DNA of 64,000 nt, taken from Candidatus Lindowbacteria bacterium RIFCSPLOWO2_12_FULL_62_27 (GTDB taxonomy: Bacteria > Lindowbacteria > 2-12-FULL-62-27). The stretch spans positions 62,001 to 126,000 of the forward strand of contig MFPR01000043.1 in NCBI GenBank assembly GCA_001784175.1, written 5' to 3'. Below are positions 25,071 through 34,876 of the stretch, one piece after another; the first letter of the stretch is position 1, and each line of letters opens with the position of its first letter. Position numbers and translations under genes: made by a program. Below the pieces are notes generated by a model, which was given only the letters and a program-made list of their open reading frames with translations, searched no databases and had not been told where the DNA came from.

Positions 25071-25472
25071 CTACAGGTCCTCCGGGCCGAACGAGTCCGG
25101 CAAGAGGTCATCGACGGTCCGGACACGATATCCGCCCCGGAGATTCGCAAGCACGACCGGCATCGACTTGCCGAACTCGCGCATGACCTGCCGGCACGCG
25201 CCGCAGGGCGAGGCGAGCCGGGTTGAATGAAAGAGCACGGCCAGCGCGCGGATCTTTTTTTCGCCGGCCGCGACCGCGTTGAAGACGGCCGTGCGTTCGG
25301 CGCAGACGGTCAGGCCGTAGGATGCGTTTTCAACGTTGCACCCGCCGTATAGTTTGCCTGACCCGCCGATGACCGCGGCGCCGACATGGAATTTCGAGTA
25401 AGGCGCATGGGCGCGCCGCCGGGCGCGGGCCGCGGTTTGGATCAATTTGCGGATCTGCGCTTTCGTTATCAT
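25071..25472 (-). CDS. cdd: Cytidine deaminase (homotetrameric type)
   Basis: APYSKFHVGAA, NVENASYGLTVCAER, PCGACRQ. Confidence 0.97.
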   Translation of the reverse strand: MITKAQIRKLIQTAARARRRAHAPYSKFHVGAAVIGGSGKLYGGCNVENASYGLTVCAERTAVFNAVAAGEKKIRALAVLFHSTRLASPCGACRQVMREFGKSMPVVLANLRGGYRVRTVDDLLPDSFGPEDL

Positions 25473-26506
25473 GCGGCCCGCCGCCGGGACGAAAACCAGT
25501 TCCGGTCAATGATCCTGCGGATCCTTGTGCGCGTCGAGTCGTCGCAGAATGCGGCATCGGCGGCGCGCCGGACGGCCGTCGCCATCTGGGCGGCGGTCAG
25601 GCCGCAGCGCCGGACGGCCATCCGGTATTCGTGGGTCAGCGTGATGTTCGACACGCCGGGATCGTCCGAATTCACCGTGACGGCGATCCCCGCGTCCGCG
25701 AGGCGTTTCAGCGGATGCGCCCGGTAACTTTTCGCGACGTGCGTCTGAACATTCGACGTCGGGCAAATTTCCAGAGTGATGTCGTGTTTTCGCAAGAGAT
25801 CCAGAACGCGCCGGTCTTCGACGCTGTGGATTCCGTGACCGATCCGCCTCGCACCCATCCGCTCGATCGCCTCCCGCACTCGGTCCGGGCCGGCGGCCTC
25901 TCCGGCATGGATGGTGACCGGAATGTCATATTTTTGCGCGAGCCGGAACGCCGGATAGTGCGGCCGCGCGGGATGGCGGATTTCGTCGCCGGCAAAATCA
26001 ACGCCGACCACGCCCCGGCCCATATACCGCCGCGCCAGCTCGACCGTCCGGATGGACGAGGCCGGCGATTCGGACCGGTAGCAGCAGAGGATCAGGCGGA
26101 CGGTCACGCCGAATTTTTTCTGGCCGCGCCGGATTCCCCGCAGGGCGCATTCGACCACGTCCTCCATCGGAAACTCGCGGGTCGCCTGAAGGACCGGCGC
26201 GAACCGGGTTTCGAGATAGACGACGTTGTCGGCCGCCGCGTCCTCGCAGATTTCGCAGGCGATCCGCTCGACGGCCCATGGGGATTTGAGGAAATCGTAG
26301 AAGAAAAAAAATTTCTGCAGAAAGTCGGCCAAACTCCGGCAGTCCCGGCCGACCTGACAGTGTGGCGCGAGTCTGCGCACACTGCGGCTGGGCAGCGGGA
26401 ATCCGCCGGCGACGGCGAGGTCGCGCAGGGTGGCCACGCGGACCGACCCGTCCAGATGGCGGTGGAGGTCGACTTTGGGAAGCGTCTTGAAATTCGCGGG
26501 GTTCAC
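25469..26506 (-). CDS. add: Adenosine deaminase
   Basis: DLHRHLDGS, HAGE, RIGHG, CPTSN, NSDDP. Confidence 0.95.
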   Translation of the reverse strand: MNPANFKTLPKVDLHRHLDGSVRVATLRDLAVAGGFPLPSRSVRRLAPHCQVGRDCRSLADFLQKFFFFYDFLKSPWAVERIACEICEDAAADNVVYLETRFAPVLQATREFPMEDVVECALRGIRRGQKKFGVTVRLILCCYRSESPASSIRTVELARRYMGRGVVGVDFAGDEIRHPARPHYPAFRLAQKYDIPVTIHAGEAAGPDRVREAIERMGARRIGHGIHSVEDRRVLDLLRKHDITLEICPTSNVQTHVAKSYRAHPLKRLADAGIAVTVNSDDPGVSNITLTHEYRMAVRRCGLTAAQMATAVRRAADAAFCDDSTRTRIRRIIDRNWFSSRRRAA

Positions 26507-27420
26507 TTTTTTTTGACAAAATATTTGTCGAGGAGGAACGCGAGCTTCGCGCGGGTTCGCGGCGGAACAAGATCCCGCGCGGTCACGATGGCGTTGGCGA
26601 GCGCGGAGTGGCACGGGCAGGACTCGTTCAGGCGTTTGGCCAGCGAGAGGATCGCCGTTCGGGCGATTCTCTTGGCGTTCTCCGCGTTTTTGAGCAGTGT
26701 CTGGATCACCATGTCGGCCGTAACGGCGTCGTGGCCTTCATACCAGCAGTCGTAGTCGGTCGGCAGTGCGCAGATGGCGTAACAGATCTCGGCTTCGCGC
26801 GCGAGTTTCGCCTCCGGCAGGGCCGTCATGCCGATGACCGATGCGCCCCAGGACCGGTGCAGGTGCGATTCGGCCTTCGTGGAGAATTGCGGGCCCTCCA
26901 TCACGACGTAGGTCCCGCCGCGGTGGACGTTCAGATGCTGTGCCTGCGCCGCGTCGTACAGCAACGCTGAGACCTTCGGGCAAAACGGATCGGCGAATGC
27001 GACATGCGCGACAACGCCCTCGCCGAAAAATGTCCCGGGCCGGTGCCGGGTCCGGTCGATGAGCTGGTCCGGAATCACGATGTCGCGGCCCGGCACGATC
27101 TCCTCCTTGAGCGAACCCACCGCCGACAGAGACAGGATCCATCGCACGCCGAGCGATTTGAGCGCGCAGATGTTCGCGCGCGAATTGACTTCGGTCGGCA
27201 AAATCCGGTGGCCCCGGCCGTGCCGGGGCAGAAACGCCACGCGCGCGCCGCCCAGCCGGCCCACGCGGATGCGGTCGGACGGTTCGCCGAAGGGCGTGTC
27301 GATTTCGATTTCCTGAAGGTCCTCGACGCCCTCCATATCATAAATGCCGCTGCCGCCGATCACGCCGATCGCCGGCGCGCTGTGCGCCGCGGCCATCTTT
27401 TTGGCCTTTGCCATGATCAC
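26503..27420 (-). CDS. mtnP: S-methyl-5'-thioadenosine phosphorylase
   Basis: GVIGGSG, PRHGRGH, EGPQFSTKAES, GMTALPEAKLAREAE, TDYDCW. Confidence 0.95.
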   Translation of the reverse strand: MIMAKAKKMAAAHSAPAIGVIGGSGIYDMEGVEDLQEIEIDTPFGEPSDRIRVGRLGGARVAFLPRHGRGHRILPTEVNSRANICALKSLGVRWILSLSAVGSLKEEIVPGRDIVIPDQLIDRTRHRPGTFFGEGVVAHVAFADPFCPKVSALLYDAAQAQHLNVHRGGTYVVMEGPQFSTKAESHLHRSWGASVIGMTALPEAKLAREAEICYAICALPTDYDCWYEGHDAVTADMVIQTLLKNAENAKRIARTAILSLAKRLNESCPCHSALANAIVTARDLVPPRTRAKLAFLLDKYFVKKK

Positions 27421-27644
27421 GCCCTCTTCTTTTTGTTCTTTAAATGTTTTCCGGCCAGCAGATCCCGCTGGAGCTTTGAGATGTCCAGCTTGCGCTTCGC
27501 GGTTTCCCGCTCATCCACGCGGATCTCGACGACGAGGCCCTCGCGGGCGCCCGCGACGTACTTGGCCGGGATTTCCAGTTGCCCGCCGTCGTCGAACTCG
27601 ATGACGGCGATGCCCTCCTCGATCCGATCAATGACGCCCTTCAT
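27417..27644 (-). CDS. DUF3006-family small protein
   Basis: VIDRIEEGIAVIE...IP...GAREG. Confidence 0.8.
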   Translation of the reverse strand: MKGVIDRIEEGIAVIEFDDGGQLEIPAKYVAGAREGLVVEIRVDERETAKRKLDISKLQRDLLAGKHLKNKKKRA

Positions 27645-29887
27645 CCGGAATTCCTTTCCGTGGCGGGCCGAACGTCCTCCAGGACCAACTGCAAGTCGAT
27701 TCGCCCTTGCCATTCGTTGCGGTCCAGCTCAAAGGCCGCGTTCACGCGGCGGCCGAGCGTGTCCGCATCGTCGCTCATGTTCCACCCGACGGCCGTCACC
27801 GCGTCGCGGGCGGTTGCGCCCAGCCGCAGCCGCAGGTGGCGGCCGTCGGCGCCGATCCGCCGGACGTCCGCCACCGGCGCGCCGAACAGCGCGAACCTCG
27901 GAAACGGATTGCCCTTGCCGAACGGCTCCAGAACGGAGATATCCTCAAGGGTGGCCATGGTCAAGTCCCCGAGCTGAAGTTCCGCGTCGATCGTCAGGAC
28001 CGGTTCCGGCATGTCCCTGAGGCGTTCAGCCACGGATTTTTTGAGCCGCTTGAAAAAGTCCGGTATGTTTTCCGGCCGGATGGTCAAGCCGACCGCCTGG
28101 TGGTGTCCGCCGAATTTCTCCAGAAGGTCCGCGCAGGTCCCGACGGCCTCGACCAGGTCCAGCGATTCGATCGACCGCGCCGACCCGACGGCCCTGCCCT
28201 CCTCCTCCATCACGATGACGACGGGCCGGGCGAACGCGTTTTTGACGCGCGCGGCGACGATGCCTCCGACGCCCGGCGGAACGCCCTCGGCGCGAACGCA
28301 GAGAATGCGGTCGGCGTCGAGGTTGTTTTGAAGCGGGACCATCTCCATCACCCGCGCGGCATGGACCTTCACCAGATCCTTTCGCTCCTCGTTCATCCGG
28401 ATGAGCTGGTCCGACAGGTATGCGGCTTCGTGATCCGACTGCGTGGTCAGCATCCGGAATGCAGGCAGCGGGTCGCCGAGCCGGCCGGGCGCGTTGAGGA
28501 GCGGGCCGAGGAGAAACGCGAGGTCCTTGCCGGTGGGCTCCGCGAGCGCCAGTTTTTCGAGGAGCCGTTTGAGGCCGATGGGTGGCGCGTGGCGCATAAT
28601 GCGGAGTCCCTCGGCCACGATGGCGCGGTTTTCTCCGACAAGCGGCATCATGTCGGCGACAGCGGCGAGCGCGGCCAGGGGCATGAGCTGTTCGTAATAA
28701 ACCTCGTCTTCAATCGATTCCCTTTCGAGGAGCTTGTAAAAGACGTCCGCGGTCGCCTGCGCGTCCGAGAGCGCGCGGTGGGCGGCGGGATTGACGACGC
28801 CGAGCGCTTCCGCCACGCGGCTGAGCTTGCGGCTGGGAAGTTCCGTGAGGGTCGAGGTTGCGACGGCCATGACGTCCAGGAAAGACGTCGACAGCCGCGT
28901 CTGGAGATGCCGGCCAAGTTCCGCGTCGAGAAAATCGCGGTCGAATTCCACATTGTAGCCGCAGAACACGGTGTCGGGGCCTTCCAGGAAACCCAATAAT
29001 TTTTTGAGCGCCGTCCGCGGCTCGATCCCGTGCGCGGCGAGGTCCTCGTCGGTGATCCCGGTGATCCGTCGGATCTCCTCCGGCAGAGGCCCTGCGGGCT
29101 TGACGAAGCACGAGAACTCGGATTGCCGGACGCCGTTGCGGTATTTGACGGCGCCGATTTCGATCACTTCGTCCTTCGCGCGGTCCAGCCCCGTCGTTTC
29201 GACGTCGACGAACACCAGCGTGCGGTTCGCGAAGGGCGACCGGCCGGCGATGAGGGCCATGGCGAGCTTGAAGGCGACCCCGGCGCCGGAAAGATGTTTG
29301 AACGGATACGTTTCGCCCGGCACGGCCGGGTGGAGGATCGCATAGGCGGGCGGCAGCGTGTCTTTCTGCTGGTGATGATCGGCGACGATGACGTCCATCC
29401 CGGCGCGGGCCGCCTCCTCGATCCGCTCGATCTCCGCGATGCCGGTGTCGACGGTGATGCCCAGCGTGCACCCTTCGCGGATCGCCCGCGCCATGACCTC
29501 GGGATGTACGCCGTACCCTTCCGACCCGGTCGGAATGTGGCTGTCGACGTCGGCGCCGAAGGCGGTCAGGACGATGCGGAGGATGGCGGTACCCGCCATG
29601 CCGTCGACGTCGCGATCACCGAAAATGAAAATCTTCTCGCCGTCCGCGATGGCCCGACGGAGTCGCGCAACGGCGCGTTCCATTTGAGTGAACAAAAATG
29701 GCGAGTGGAGATGCCGGCGTACCGGGTTTAGGAATTCCGTGGCCTCGGGCGCTGTCCGGACGCCGCGATTCACGAGAAGCCTCGCGAGAAGCGGGCTGAG
29801 TTGCAGGGCCGAAACGAGATCGTGTTCGGCGGCCGAGTCTCCGGCCGCGACCCGCCAGACCGGGGGGGCTATTTGAGAATCTGCCAT
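27641..29887 (-). CDS. recJ: ssDNA exonuclease RecJ with inserted DnaQ-like DEDDh exonuclease domain
   Basis: DHH motifs GDRDVDG, TVDTG, ADHH, VADMMPL, GSARS, GGH; insert DVETTG...NVEFD...HRALSDA. Confidence 0.93.
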   Translation of the reverse strand: MADSQIAPPVWRVAAGDSAAEHDLVSALQLSPLLARLLVNRGVRTAPEATEFLNPVRRHLHSPFLFTQMERAVARLRRAIADGEKIFIFGDRDVDGMAGTAILRIVLTAFGADVDSHIPTGSEGYGVHPEVMARAIREGCTLGITVDTGIAEIERIEEAARAGMDVIVADHHQQKDTLPPAYAILHPAVPGETYPFKHLSGAGVAFKLAMALIAGRSPFANRTLVFVDVETTGLDRAKDEVIEIGAVKYRNGVRQSEFSCFVKPAGPLPEEIRRITGITDEDLAAHGIEPRTALKKLLGFLEGPDTVFCGYNVEFDRDFLDAELGRHLQTRLSTSFLDVMAVATSTLTELPSRKLSRVAEALGVVNPAAHRALSDAQATADVFYKLLERESIEDEVYYEQLMPLAALAAVADMMPLVGENRAIVAEGLRIMRHAPPIGLKRLLEKLALAEPTGKDLAFLLGPLLNAPGRLGDPLPAFRMLTTQSDHEAAYLSDQLIRMNEERKDLVKVHAARVMEMVPLQNNLDADRILCVRAEGVPPGVGGIVAARVKNAFARPVVIVMEEEGRAVGSARSIESLDLVEAVGTCADLLEKFGGHHQAVGLTIRPENIPDFFKRLKKSVAERLRDMPEPVLTIDAELQLGDLTMATLEDISVLEPFGKGNPFPRFALFGAPVADVRRIGADGRHLRLRLGATARDAVTAVGWNMSDDADTLGRRVNAAFELDRNEWQGRIDLQLVLEDVRPATERNSG

Positions 29888-31188
29888 ATCAGTTTCCTTT
29901 TTTTGGGCCGCCCGGCGCCGATTTTCAGCGCCGCCAGAAACCGCGCCCGGCCGTCAGGGATGCGGGCGGGATCGCCGGCATGAAGCCATGCGACGGGCTC
30001 GCCCTTTTTCACGCGATCGCCCGTTTTTTTGGCAAGGACAATTCCCGCGGCAAAATCGATTTTGTCCGACGCGCGCGTCCGGCCGGCGCCGAGCAGGAGA
30101 GACGCGACGCCGACATCCCGCGCCGCCAGCCGCTGAACGACGCCGCTCTTTGGCGCCTCGACCGCAACGACATGCCGGGCCGCCGGAAGGCGCGCGGGGT
30201 CGTCGATCGCCTTGGGATCGCCGCCCTGGGCTTCGACGATCTCCGCGAATTTCCGGCGGGCCTGGCCGTTGGACAACACGGTGAGGATGGCCTTGCGGCC
30301 CTCCTCGGAATTTTTTACGCGGCCCGCAAGTTTGAGCATTTCGGCGCCGAAGGTGACCACGAGTTCCCGCAGGTCGGCCGGCCCCTCGCCCGACAGGCAC
30401 TCGATGGTTTCGCGGATCTCCAGCGCGTTGCCGATGGCCCGGCCCAAGGGCTGTTCCATGTCGGTGATGAAACAGACGGCGGGCCGGCCGGCTTTCCGGC
30501 AGATGCCGAGCATCGCGCGTGCGAGGCGTTTGGAGTCGGCGAGGGTCTGCATGAATGCGCCGTGCCCGGTCTTGACGTCGAGCACAAGCGCCTCGGGACC
30601 CGCCGCAAGTTTTTTGGAGAGGATGCTGGCGGCGATGAGGGGAATGCAGTCGACGGTGGCGGTCACGTCGCGGAGCGCGTACATTTTTCGGTCGGCGGGC
30701 GCGATCTTGTCCGTCTGGCCGATGATGGCGCCGCCGACGCGGGACAGGACCTGGACGAACTCATCTTTTGACAGATTCGTGCGGAATCCGGGGATCGATT
30801 CAAGCTTGTCGAGCGTCCCGCCCGTGTGTCCGAGCCCGCGGCCGGACATCATCGGGACGGGCACGCCGCAGGCGGCGACGGCGGGCGTGAGCGGCAGCGA
30901 AACCTTGTCGCCGACCCCGCCCGTCGAATGCTTGTCGACGGTCCGGACGGGAAACCGGCCGTGCAGGTCGAGGACTTCGCCGGACGCCATCATCTCCTGT
31001 GTGAGCGCCGCCGTTTCCGCGTCGTCCATCCCGTGGAAAAAGACGGCCATCAGGAAGGCGGCCATCTGGTAGTCGGGGATGTCGCCCCGCGTGAACCCGC
31101 CGACCATGAACTCGATCTCGTCGCGGTCCAGGCGCCGGCCGTTGCGTTTTTTGAAAATGATTTCGTAAGGAAGGAAATTCGGGCTCAT
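29869..31188 (-). CDS. pdp: Pyrimidine-nucleoside/thymidine phosphorylase
   Basis: DKHSTGGVGDK, SGRGLGHTGGTLDKLESIPG, LRDVTATV, SILSKK. Confidence 0.96.
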   Translation of the reverse strand: MSPNFLPYEIIFKKRNGRRLDRDEIEFMVGGFTRGDIPDYQMAAFLMAVFFHGMDDAETAALTQEMMASGEVLDLHGRFPVRTVDKHSTGGVGDKVSLPLTPAVAACGVPVPMMSGRGLGHTGGTLDKLESIPGFRTNLSKDEFVQVLSRVGGAIIGQTDKIAPADRKMYALRDVTATVDCIPLIAASILSKKLAAGPEALVLDVKTGHGAFMQTLADSKRLARAMLGICRKAGRPAVCFITDMEQPLGRAIGNALEIRETIECLSGEGPADLRELVVTFGAEMLKLAGRVKNSEEGRKAILTVLSNGQARRKFAEIVEAQGGDPKAIDDPARLPAARHVVAVEAPKSGVVQRLAARDVGVASLLLGAGRTRASDKIDFAAGIVLAKKTGDRVKKGEPVAWLHAGDPARIPDGRARFLAALKIGAGRPKKRKLIWQILK

Positions 31189-32008
31189 TTGAATTCCGGT
31201 TCTTTCATCATCTCCATCACGAGGCGTTGGAATTGCCCGGCGACCCGCTCGGACGTTTCGATCACTTCGGCGTGGGACAGGGCCTGCTTGCTGACGCCGG
31301 CCGCGAGGTTCGAGACCAGGGAAATCGACAGGCATCGCATGTTCATATGGCGGCCGGCCAGAATTTCGGGCACGGTCGACATCCCGACGGCGTCCGCGCC
31401 GAGTTTTCGCAGCATCCGCACCTCGGACGGCGTCTCGTAGCTCGGGCCGAGACACGCGGCGTACACGCCCTCCTGAATCCGCAGCTTCATCCGCCGCGCC
31501 ACCCGCCGGGCGGCGGCGCGAAGGTCCGCATCGTAGGCACAGGTCATGTCGTAAAACCGCGGACCCAGGCTGTCCGGGTTCGGGCCGCGGAGCGGATGGT
31601 CGCCGAGAAGATTGAGATGGTCGCGGATCAGCATGAGGTCTCCGACACGGAATTTTTTGTTGATCCCGCCGACGGCGTTGGCGGTGAAGAGGATCGACGC
31701 GCCGAGAAGTTTCATGAGCCGCACGCCGAAGACGATCTTGTCCATCGGGTGGCCTTCGTAATAATGGACGCGGCCCTGCATCGCGACCACCGGCACGCCG
31801 TGGAGGGCGCCGAAGACCAGGTTGCCGGCGTGTCCGGGAACGTTCGTCCGCGGAAATTCGGGAATGTCCTCGTACCGGATCGCCTCCCGGCCGGCCAGCC
31901 GGTCGGCGAGCCCGCCCAGACCCGACCCGAGGACGATCGCCACGCGGGGCGTGAGCGAAACACGGCGCCGGACGGCGCGGAGCGCGGTCTGCAGGTCGGC
32001 GGCGCCGC

Positions 32009-32012
<4 letters not shown>
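31185..32012 (-). CDS. punA: Purine nucleoside phosphorylase (trimeric type)
   Basis: VLGSGLG, VPGHAG, GRVHYYEG, GPSYETPSE, VGMSTVPE. Confidence 0.95.

Positions 32013-34876
<2,864 letters not shown>

What the first reader, a model, noticed from the sequence alone, without database searches (positions are those of the whole stretch)
27641..29887. RecJ with a complete DnaQ-like 3'-5' exonuclease nested inside its DHH domain
Seen: between RecJ segments GAGVAFKLAMAL and LAALAAVADMMPLVGENR, which are normally close together, about 165 aa (approx. 28720-29230) are inserted in frame. The insert carries all DEDDh catalytic motifs (VDVETTG, YNVEFD, HRALSDA), and all RecJ motifs (GDRDVDG, TVD, DHH, VAD, GSARS, GGH) are retained. 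Established: RecJ is a 5'-3' ssDNA exonuclease and DEDDh/DnaQ domains are 3'-5' exonucleases. Inference: one polypeptide that can degrade ssDNA from both ends, built by domain insertion rather than end-to-end fusion. I cannot tell how widespread this architecture is.
Basis: partly seen in the sequence, partly recalled or inferred. Interest (0 to 1): 0.82.

Follow-up and report, generated by a model that had tools for sequence, protein, structure and literature searches.

The report
RecJ exonuclease with nested DnaQ-type exonuclease
This bacterium's only RecJ DNA-end-trimming enzyme carries a complete second exonuclease of opposite polarity spliced into its catalytic domain, a real and conserved but so far undescribed variant of two well-known enzymes.

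Summary
ORF 27641-29887 (-) encodes a 748-aa RecJ that scores over the TIGR00644 cut-off. Its Pfam DHH domain is split at profile position 103 of 125 by a full-length RNase_T/DEDDh domain (aa 225-383). All five DEDDh residues and all RecJ motifs are intact.

It is not a misassembly. Contigs from other runs bridge both junctions, including a ~3 % divergent strain from another study.

It is not unique. The same insertion point is found in 30 further 50 %-identity representatives. It occurs in 4 of 4 genomes of the window's family, 39 of 301 genomes sampled from a Spirochaetota-type phylum, and 4 of 7 of a small phylum. Source names also place it in Elusimicrobia. A single origin is not rejected. 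The insert later decayed in some lineages and was deleted in others.

The AlphaFold2 model is very confident (pLDDT 96.5, pTM 0.95).

The most likely function is a two-polarity ssDNA exonuclease. That activity is inferred, not shown. I found no paper describing the architecture. This scan had already noted it in Endomicrobiia on other DNA (e1-363640). I rate it a new variant of a known kind, of moderate interest.

The parts
27641..29887 (-). recJ-exo gene, 748 aa. It is the only RecJ over the family cut-off in the genome.
   Evidence: ORF list and translation. TIGR00644 scores 489 bits against a cut-off of 396.9. The own-genome search finds one match over the cut-off.
29246..29887 (-). N-terminal region plus the first part of the DHH domain (aa 1-214), with motifs I-III (D91, D93, D95, D147, D170-H171-H172) and helix 201-214.
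   Evidence: Pfam DHH at 85-210 covers profile positions 1-103 of 125. These residues are invariant in 36 of 36 insert-bearing proteins.
28703..29245 (-). Nested DEDDh (DnaQ/PolC-exo type) 3'-5' exonuclease module, aa ~215-395. The Pfam RNase_T core is aa 225-383 (nt 28739-29215). Catalytic residues are D228, E230, D316, H370 and D375.
   Evidence: PF00929 covers the full profile at E 3.5e-30. The best solved sequence relative is the PolC-type exonuclease 2p1j at E 8.8e-25. Foldseek matches the DnaQ domain 8h2f with TM 0.90 and rmsd 1.9. All five residues are present in 33 of 36 homologues.
28304..28702 (-). Second part of the DHH domain (helix 392-411, motif IV D412, ENR 419-421) and the long linker helices (aa 396-528).
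   Evidence: Alignments to SaRecJ 8y30 and DrRecJ 5f54 resume at query residues 400-402. D412, N420 and R421 are invariant.
28028..28303 (-). DHHA1 domain (aa 529-620), with GGH at 593-595.
   Evidence: Pfam PF02272, E 1.5e-13.
27674..27991 (-). RecJ OB-fold domain (aa 633-738).
   Evidence: Pfam PF17768, E 8.6e-27.
32009..34876 (-). uvrA, whose stop overlaps the start of the next gene by 4 nt.
   Evidence: Pfam UvrA_inter, UvrA_DNA-bind and ABC_tran. Coordinates.
31185..32012 (-). Purine nucleoside phosphorylase-type gene (PNP_UDP_1).
   Evidence: Pfam PF01048, E 8e-55.
29869..31188 (-). Pyrimidine/thymidine nucleoside phosphorylase. The start at Met90 of the listed ORF is my inference. Its stop overlaps the recJ start by 19 nt.
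   Evidence: Pfam Glycos_trans_3N, Glycos_transf_3 and PYNP_C. ORF.
27417..27647 (-). DUF3006 small protein, overlapping the recJ 3' end.
   Evidence: Pfam PF11213, E 4e-14. It is conserved downstream of recJ in L008, L009, L019, L020 and L021.
26503..27420 (-). MTAP-like phosphorylase (PNP_UDP_1).
   Evidence: Pfam PF01048, E 3.9e-46.
25469..26614 (-). Adenosine deaminase (start uncertain).
   Evidence: Pfam PF00962, E 9e-96.

Best explanation
The gene encodes the organism's housekeeping RecJ, a 5'-3' ssDNA exonuclease made of DHH, DHHA1 and OB-fold domains. A complete, catalytically intact DEDDh 3'-5' exonuclease of the PolC/DinG/epsilon type is spliced into a short surface connection of its DHH domain, between the helix after motif III and the helix that leads into motif IV. 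Both active sites are under purifying selection, and the inserted domain is predicted to be rigidly mounted on the RecJ core. The protein therefore most likely degrades single-stranded DNA with both polarities: RecJ from 5' ends and the insert from 3' ends. That would give a one-polypeptide counterpart of the RecJ plus ExoI/ExoX pair used for ssDNA removal in mismatch and excision repair and for clearing ssDNA fragments. The architecture most likely arose once in an old RecJ sub-clade now found in Lindowbacteria-type, Spirochaetota, Elusimicrobia and a further small phylum. The insert later lost its catalytic residues in some lineages and was cleanly deleted in others. What is shown: the architecture, residue conservation, fold, distribution and absence of misassembly. 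What is inferred: both enzymatic activities, their substrates and the biological role.
For: It is the sole RecJ over the cut-off in a 94 % complete genome. The insertion point is the same in all 7 proteins of A1, and 30 of 149 further representatives carry the insert at the same relative position. The RecJ catalytic residues are present in 36 of 36 proteins and the five DEDDh residues in 33 of 36. The insert is as conserved as the core, with mean pairwise identity 36.0 % against 37.1 % over 630 pairs. Against a ~3 % divergent strain, the insert shows 11 synonymous and 3 nonsynonymous changes and the core 20 and 6, among the 40 of 54 substitutions listed. AlphaFold2 gives pLDDT 96.5 and pTM 0.95. 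Foldseek matches RecJ structures 8y30, 5f55 and 2zxo at E 4e-47 to 1e-37, and matches DnaQ/PolC-exo/DinG-exo domains for the insert. Contigs of other runs bridge both junctions with no joint or indel. Apart from this insert, the own genome has only one other solid RNase_T-family protein, and no ExoI-sized one.
Against: There is no biochemical or expression evidence, and no RNA run was listed. I could not obtain model coordinates, so the relative orientation and distance of the two active sites are unknown. Catalysis by the insert is dispensable in nature. Decayed inserts that have lost the DEDDh residues are retained in several lineages (hhalign probability 99 % for two groups). Two close relatives, 60-65 % identical to the window's protein by BLASTP, lack the insert altogether. 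The genome also encodes ExoVII, which is itself bidirectional, so a two-polarity RecJ is not obviously needed. From E. coli sbcB genetics (established knowledge), a 3'-5' exonuclease tethered to RecJ would destroy the 3' tail that RecFOR recombination needs. That argues the enzyme is for ssDNA removal rather than for recombination initiation.
Confidence: 0.7

Rival explanations
1. The DEDDh module is an active nuclease but does not work on the same substrates as RecJ. It could finish the short oligonucleotides that RecJ leaves, or degrade RNA or nano-oligonucleotides. The protein would then be a complete-digestion enzyme that feeds nucleotide salvage, rather than a both-ends repair exonuclease.
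For: The gene sits in a tight same-strand cluster of uvrA, PNP, pyrimidine nucleoside phosphorylase, recJ, DUF3006, MTAP-like phosphorylase and adenosine deaminase, with overlapping stops and starts. The phosphorylase neighbours recur in 5 loci from the window's family (4 organisms). They also recur in an Elusimicrobia MAG (L029) and partly in a Spirochaetaceae MAG (L026). Members of the DEDDh family include oligoribonuclease (established knowledge).
Against: The closest sequence and structure relatives of the insert are DNA-directed exonucleases: PolC exo 2p1j, the DnaQ domain 8h2f and DinG exo 8zef. The operon is also kept next to RecJs whose insert is short and weakly similar (L029 and L026: 25-27 % identity, 576-603 nt matched), so the linkage is not specific to an active insert. 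No 5'-nucleotidase was identified in the cluster.
Confidence: 0.17
2. The inserted domain mainly serves a non-catalytic role, such as a structural brace, a 3'-end or ssDNA-binding platform, or a docking site for a partner. Nuclease activity would be secondary or absent.
For: Lineages that have lost the DEDDh residues still keep a domain-sized insert at this site: P0148, P0151, P0154 and P0220 (hhalign probability 99 %), and the Treponema type (probability 78.6 %). The Treponema-type model is confident (pLDDT 92.6), and its insert has a beta-beta-beta-alpha-beta-alpha-beta order like the DEDDh fold. The high pTM suggests the insert packs firmly on the core.
Against: All five catalytic residues are kept in 33 of 36 insert-bearing proteins that are only about 36 % identical overall, which is hard to explain without selection on catalysis. 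The insert can also be deleted cleanly in close relatives, so the scaffold does not need it.
Confidence: 0.1
3. The feature is an artefact: a chimeric assembly, a frame-fused pair of neighbouring genes, or a pseudogene.
For: None found. The window comes from a metagenome-type assembly of 44 contigs.
Against: The frame is open across 748 codons. Contigs from runs of other samples cross both junctions. One of them, a 1163-nt contig from a different study with 37 differences, spans both junctions. The same architecture occurs in single-contig complete genomes (G030, G056) and in dozens of independent assemblies.
Confidence: 0.01

Closest known systems
Bacterial RecJ (D. radiodurans 5F54-5F56/6LRD, T. 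thermophilus 2ZXO/1IR6, S. aureus 8Y30; NCBIfam TIGR00644)
   Same: It has the DHH motifs I-IV, DHHA1 with GGH, and the RecJ OB fold. It scores over the equivalog cut-off, Foldseek gives E 4e-47 to 1e-37, and it is the only RecJ in the genome.
   Different: All four solved RecJ sequences align in two stretches that stop at query residues 212-215 and resume at 400-403. They have a 5-10 residue connection where this protein has a ~170-aa DEDDh domain. Unlike DrRecJ, there is no extra C-terminal domain after the OB fold, as the sequence ends at 748.
PolC-type / DinG-type / epsilon-like DEDDh exonuclease domains (2P1J, 8H18/8H2F, 8ZEF; Pfam PF00929)
   Same: The RNase_T profile is matched in full, with DEDDh residues D228, E230, D316, H370 and D375. 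TM is 0.90 and rmsd 1.9 to 8h2f. In S. aureus DinG such a domain is an active 3'-5' exonuclease fused to another DNA enzyme (PMC12345164, abstract and passages seen).
   Different: Here the host is RecJ and the domain is nested rather than terminal. It fails the epsilon equivalog cut-off (TIGR01406 58 bits against 222.7) and only marginally passes the dnaq subfamily-domain model (72.3 against 71.5). From memory, not tested here: in PolC the exonuclease is likewise nested, inside the PHP domain.
Archaeal GAN / eukaryotic Cdc45 (DHH scaffold with an inserted CID domain)
   Same: This is a precedent for a whole domain inserted into the RecJ/DHH scaffold while the DHH and DHHA1 folds are kept (PMC5100581, abstract and passages seen; PMC4846377, passages).
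   Different: The CID is a helical protein-interaction domain, not a nuclease. It starts at GAN residue 169, about 20 residues beyond where GAN stops aligning to this protein (chain residue 148), so I could not show it is the same site.
Exonuclease VII (XseAB)
   Same: Functional analogy only: a bacterial ssDNA exonuclease acting from both 5' and 3' ends (established knowledge).
   Different: It has no homology and uses one active site instead of two. The window's genome encodes xseA as well.
Earlier finding of this scan, e1-363640 (Endomicrobiia RecJ with nested DnaQ-type exonuclease)
   Same: It reports the same architecture and the same nucleoside-breakdown operon. Cluster members of P0124 and P0128 are named Elusimicrobia and Endomicrobiales by their sources.
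   Different: It lies on different DNA in a different phylum. The proteins here are about 35 % identical to those representatives.

Membership tests
Bacterial RecJ (TIGR00644 equivalog) | Score over the curated whole-protein cut-off | tested here: met
   489 bits against a cut-off of 396.9, in one stretch covering 31-738 against profile 2-545 of 546. The genome search gives 488.9 bits.
Bacterial RecJ (TIGR00644 equivalog) | DHH motifs I-IV and the DHHA1 GGH motif, which hold the metal-binding and catalytic residues | tested here: met
   D91, D93, D95, D147, D170, H171, H172, D412 and G593-G594-H595 are present and invariant in 36 of 36 homologues.
Bacterial RecJ (TIGR00644 equivalog) | OB-fold domain after the nuclease core | tested here: met
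   PF17768 RecJ_OB at 633-738, E 8.6e-27.
Bacterial RecJ (TIGR00644 equivalog) | RecJ three-dimensional fold | tested here: met
   The AF2 model (pLDDT 96.5) matches 8y30_A at E 4.1e-47 with TMq 0.69, and also 5f55 and 2zxo.
Bacterial RecJ (TIGR00644 equivalog) | Processive 5'-3' ssDNA-specific exonuclease activity | not testable with these tools
   This needs enzymology.
DEDDh (DnaQ-like) exonuclease, Pfam RNase_T PF00929 | Full-length profile match over the gathering score | tested here: met
   106.1 bits against a cut-off of 24, profile 1-164 of 164.
DEDDh (DnaQ-like) exonuclease, Pfam RNase_T PF00929 | Exo I DxE, Exo II D, and Exo III H-x4-D residues | tested here: met
   D228, E230, D316, H370 and D375 are present. 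All five occur in 33 of 36 homologues; P0132 and P0133 lack D316 and P0236 lacks H370 and D375 in the alignment.
DEDDh (DnaQ-like) exonuclease, Pfam RNase_T PF00929 | RNase H-like DnaQ fold | tested here: met
   8h2f gives TMt 0.90 and rmsd 1.9 over 168 columns. 2p1j, RNase T and ExoI are also listed.
DEDDh (DnaQ-like) exonuclease, Pfam RNase_T PF00929 | 3'-5' exonuclease activity | not testable with these tools
   This needs enzymology.
DNA polymerase III epsilon subunit (DnaQ proper) | Score over the equivalog cut-off | tested here: not met
   TIGR01406 scores 58.3 against 222.7, and PRK05711 56.5 against 196. Only the broad dnaq subfamily-domain model is just reached, at 72.3 against 71.5.

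The most novel reading that the evidence does not exclude
The rigidly mounted DEDDh domain and the RecJ core form one composite machine that attacks the same ssDNA from both ends, or finishes RecJ's limit oligonucleotides. It would be dedicated to complete disposal of excised or foreign ssDNA, coupled through a conserved operon (uvrA, nucleoside phosphorylases, adenosine deaminase) to recycling of the released nucleotides. That would be a repair-to-salvage pathway not described for RecJ.
Probability: 0.2. Interest if true: 0.6.

Novelty: new variant of a known kind. Interest (0 to 1): 0.45.

Why it matters
RecJ and DnaQ-type exonucleases are textbook enzymes of opposite polarity that normally act as separate proteins. 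A conserved natural chimera with one nested inside the catalytic domain of the other gives a clean system for three questions. It can show whether two-ended ssDNA degradation by one polypeptide is useful in repair or nucleotide recycling. It can show how a domain insertion is tolerated next to an active site. It can show how such a module decays, because nature provides active, inactivated and deleted versions within one clade. It also shows that current annotation hides a second catalytic domain. The source names seen for these proteins were mostly plain 'RecJ'; one (P0128) read 'exonuclease domain-containing protein'.

Tried and rejected
- **Profile search of the word-indexed collection with A2.** Only 8000 candidates were scored, and just 9 of the 120 listed proteins carried PF00929. 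It missed most insert-bearing representatives found by the exhaustive search, so I did not use it for counts.
- **Expression.** No RNA holder was listed.
- **Model coordinates.** They are not exposed in the script box, so I could not measure active-site distance or orientation.
- **Treponema-type insert.** The AF2 model is good. Foldseek on the whole model lists only DHH-family chains among those shown, and hhalign gives only 78.6 % probability. Whether it is a decayed DEDDh domain therefore stays inconclusive. The 113-aa Spirochaete inserts (probability 32.8 %) and P0212 (2 %) gave no significant similarity.
- **Same site as the GAN/Cdc45 CID insertion?** Not shown.
- **ESM Atlas.** It lists at most three Pfam families per cluster, so it cannot show RNase_T. 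It only showed large Spirochaetota clusters of 685-722-aa RecJs.
- **Earlier notes by sequence and by place.** Nothing found.
- **Literature searches that found no description of the architecture.**
  - RecJ + DnaQ + DHH + inserted.
  - RecJ + DEDDh.
  - RecJ + RNase T + domain architecture + DHHA1.
  - RecJ + exonuclease domain + Elusimicrobia.
  - RecJ + bidirectional + ssDNA exonuclease + DnaQ-like.
  - RecJ + Lindowbacteria.
  - PF01368 + PF00929.
  - PMC4663267 was checked by term search only.
- **The idea that the insert is the cell's epsilon proofreader.** Rejected as a membership claim, because the equivalog cut-offs are not met.
Full report
**Observation**

All quoted motifs are present at the expected positions.

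Pfam places the following domains:
- DHH at residues 85-210, covering only profile positions 1-103 of 125.
- A full-length RNase_T (DEDDh) domain at 225-383 (profile 1-164 of 164, E 3.5e-30).
- DHHA1 at 529-620.
- RecJ_OB at 633-738.

NCBIfam's RecJ equivalog TIGR00644 is passed in a single stretch that spans the insert, at 489 bits against a cut-off of 396.9. The insert alone scores best against PolC-type, DinG-type and 'DEDD exonuclease domain' models.

Residue-level alignment to solved RecJs stops at query 212-215 and resumes at 400-402. That corresponds to a connection of only 5 residues in S. aureus RecJ (213-217) and about 10 in D. radiodurans RecJ (201-210). In my alignment of 99 proteins, the 45 canonical RecJs have 12-33 residues where this protein has 190. 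So a ~170-aa domain is nested inside the DHH domain, between the helix that follows motif III and the helix that leads into motif IV (D412).

**Not an artefact**

Eleven public runs hold the stretch, and I laid four of them.
- One run that may be the source spans the whole gene.
- In a second run (X5), one contig covers 27624-28973 and another covers 29006-30000. Each crosses one junction (about nt 28682 and 29251) without a difference.
- In a run from another study (X8), a single 1163-nt contig (28601-29763) with 37 differences spans both junctions.
- No joints or indels were reported.

Of the 40 substitutions listed for that strain (14 more were not shown), the insert has 11 synonymous and 3 nonsynonymous changes. 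The rest of the gene has 20 and 6.

**Distribution**

- **Search with the insert region alone.** RecJ hosts were 7 of the 120 listed proteins: the window's own protein, five that are 53-63 % identical, and a Brevinema MAG protein at 37 %. The remaining 113 carried no DHH domain; the architectures I recognised among them were DinG-, GIY-YIG- and PolC-type hosts.
- **Exhaustive HMMER search of 1.84 billion representatives.** It listed 150 proteins. Re-testing 156 sequences with the insert as query gave 37 with an insert-like domain at the same relative position, 30 of them new.
- **Genome searches.**
  - All 4 genomes of the window's family carry a match that spans the insert in one stretch.
  - Of the 37 other genomes in that sample, 2 do (G030, G011).
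  - In the phylum of G030, 39 of 301 sampled genomes have a full junction-plus-insert match inside a long frame. Most frames are 736-826 aa, and a few are cut by contig ends. The other 48 of the 87 genomes that passed E 1e-30 are one partial match at a contig end, stand-alone 176-323-aa DEDDh proteins, and two ~720-730-aa frames matching the insert only.
  - In the small phylum of G011, 4 of 7 genomes have it.
- **Record titles and source names.** These tie the carriers to the following groups:
  - Candidatus Lindowbacteria (L020, 65 % identical across the junction region). Its neighbour matches are the same as those of G001, a genome of the window's family.
  - Brevinematales, Brevinemataceae and Spirochaetota.
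  - Elusimicrobia and Endomicrobiales.

An earlier follow-up in this scan (e1-363640) had reported the same architecture in Endomicrobiia on other DNA.

**Conservation and evolution**

In the alignment of 36 insert-bearing proteins (29-65 % identical to the query), the RecJ residues are present in 36 of 36. The five DEDDh residues are present in 33 of 36. Mean pairwise identity is 36.0 % in the insert and 37.1 % in the core over 630 pairs. Within the window's family it is 55.4 % against 68.4 %.

*Tree.* I built a tree of 99 rows on the RecJ core with the insert columns removed (quick IQ-TREE, LG+G4). The rows were:
- 39 insert-bearing proteins.
- 13 proteins with extra length but no Pfam RNase_T call. 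One of these, P0286, turned out to have only 14 residues at the site.
- 2 insert-less close relatives.
- 45 canonical RecJs, drawn at random from the 545-620-aa hits.

In that tree, 42 of the 45 canonical rows plus P0286 fall in one clade (SH-aLRT 99). All insert-bearing rows fall on the other side, together with three canonical rows. Forcing the 53 insert-bearing, decayed and recently insert-less rows into one clade gives a likelihood 7.06 units higher than the free search, with p-AU 0.568. A single origin is therefore not rejected, but the tree is unrooted and the grouping was partly chosen after seeing the data.

*Secondary loss.* The window's protein sits in a clade of 8 rows with 100 % support. 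That clade contains 6 insert-bearing proteins and the two insert-less ones, P0274 and P0275. P0275 is encoded on G002:C23 with DUF3006 and then the MTAP-like gene downstream, as in the window. It reads straight from the helix after motif III into the motif IV helix. This points to secondary deletion. G002 also holds an insert-bearing copy and has 6 % contamination, so it may be a mixed bin.

*Decay.* Inserts without a Pfam call fall into three groups:
- P0148 and the P0151/P0154/P0220 group are clearly homologous to the DEDDh insert (hhalign probability 99 %, E about 1e-18), but their catalytic residues are replaced.
- The Treponema type is only weakly similar (78.6 %).
- Two further groups are not significantly similar.

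A confident model of a Treponema-type protein (pLDDT 92.6) shows a compatible strand-helix order in the insert. Foldseek listed no DnaQ-like chain for it.

**Structure**

AlphaFold2 on a 100-sequence alignment gives mean pLDDT 96.5 and pTM 0.95, with 727 of 748 residues at pLDDT 90 or more. This implies that the placement of the insert relative to the core is also predicted with confidence.

The last helix of the DEDDh domain (372-390) runs almost directly into the scaffold helix 392-411 that ends at motif IV. Foldseek matches RecJ structures for the scaffold and DnaQ/PolC-exo/DinG-exo/RNase T/ExoI for the insert. No solved chain has both.

According to the DrRecJ paper (PMC4846377, passages seen), a motif IV residue stacks between DNA bases, so the insert emerges close to the DNA-binding groove. 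I could not measure the geometry because coordinates are not exposed.

**Context**

The gene lies in a same-strand run of seven genes: uvrA, a PNP-type phosphorylase, a pyrimidine nucleoside phosphorylase, recJ-exo, DUF3006, an MTAP-like phosphorylase and adenosine deaminase. The stops and starts overlap.

The phosphorylase neighbours are conserved in five loci from the window's family (four organisms, since L008/L020 and L009/L021 are the same two regions fetched twice). An Elusimicrobia MAG has PNP, TP, recJ and MTAP in that order. A Spirochaetaceae MAG has TP next to recJ, and a Treponema MAG has uvrA next to recJ.

The own genome also encodes ExoVII large subunit and MutS. It has one stand-alone 201-aa DEDDh protein that is 35 % identical to the insert and of the same PolC/DinG-like subtype.

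**How it most likely works**

*Shown:* two complete catalytic modules of opposite known polarity in one chain, both under purifying selection, with the insert rigidly mounted.

*Inferred:* the RecJ part threads 5' ends as in DrRecJ, and the DEDDh part removes nucleotides from 3' ends. Together they would give a two-polarity ssDNA exonuclease suited to removing excised strands, flaps and ssDNA fragments.

Because a tethered 3' exonuclease would erode recombinogenic 3' tails, a disposal or excision role seems more likely than recombination initiation. The operon with nucleoside-catabolic genes suggests, but does not show, a link to nucleotide recycling.

The rivals are set out in the Rival explanations section: a different substrate for the insert, a mainly structural role, and an artefact.

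**Novelty**

Seven full-text searches found no paper describing a RecJ with an inserted DEDDh domain. The papers opened treat RecJ, DinG-exo and GAN separately. Supplementary files could not be read.

The source names seen were mostly plain RecJ; one (P0128) reads 'exonuclease domain-containing protein'. The architecture combines two well-known domains in a new arrangement and is widespread in a few poorly studied phyla. I rate it a new variant of a known kind, of moderate interest.

Noticed in passing
window 25469-34876 (-): Seven same-strand genes run with overlapping stops and starts: uvrA, a PNP-type phosphorylase, a pyrimidine nucleoside phosphorylase, recJ-exo, DUF3006, an MTAP-like phosphorylase and adenosine deaminase. 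The phosphorylase-recJ linkage recurs in the window's family, in an Elusimicrobia MAG (L029) and partly in a Spirochaetaceae MAG (L026). So RecJ is linked to nucleoside catabolism across phyla.
   Followed up: partly
L019 (G002:C23) 1039-2889 and L010 (G002:C212) 453-2816: One genome bin holds both an insert-less 616-aa RecJ, which is syntenic (DUF3006 and MTAP downstream), and an insert-bearing RecJ. The bin has 6 % contamination, so it may contain two related populations. The pair is a natural with-and-without comparison.
   Followed up: partly
G000:C43:164237-164767 (L004 1474-2079), outside the window: A stand-alone 201-aa DEDDh exonuclease of the same PolC/DinG-like subtype, 35 % identical to the nested domain. 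Apart from the insert, it is the only other solid RNase_T-family protein in the genome.
   Followed up: partly
P0122 (1848 aa): A representative protein with three RecJ-like repeats (three DHH and three RecJ_OB stretches) and a weak Toprim match. It could be a tandem fusion or an assembly or gene-calling artefact.
   Followed up: no
Genomes of the phylum of G030: 45 of the 301 genomes have a 176-323-aa stand-alone DEDDh protein that matches the insert profile at E 1e-31 to 1e-39. Many are in one family (f53). Whether these genomes have decayed RecJ inserts was not checked.
   Followed up: no
G000:C28:142061-142333 and 145024-145164 (L005, L006): Two weak RNase_T-like matches lie in short frames, one with an internal TGA. 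They may be gene remnants.
   Followed up: no
ESM Atlas clusters: There are large Spirochaetota clusters (57-172 members) of 685-722-aa RecJs, about 110-150 aa longer than canonical. This fits decayed inserts being common in that phylum.
   Followed up: no
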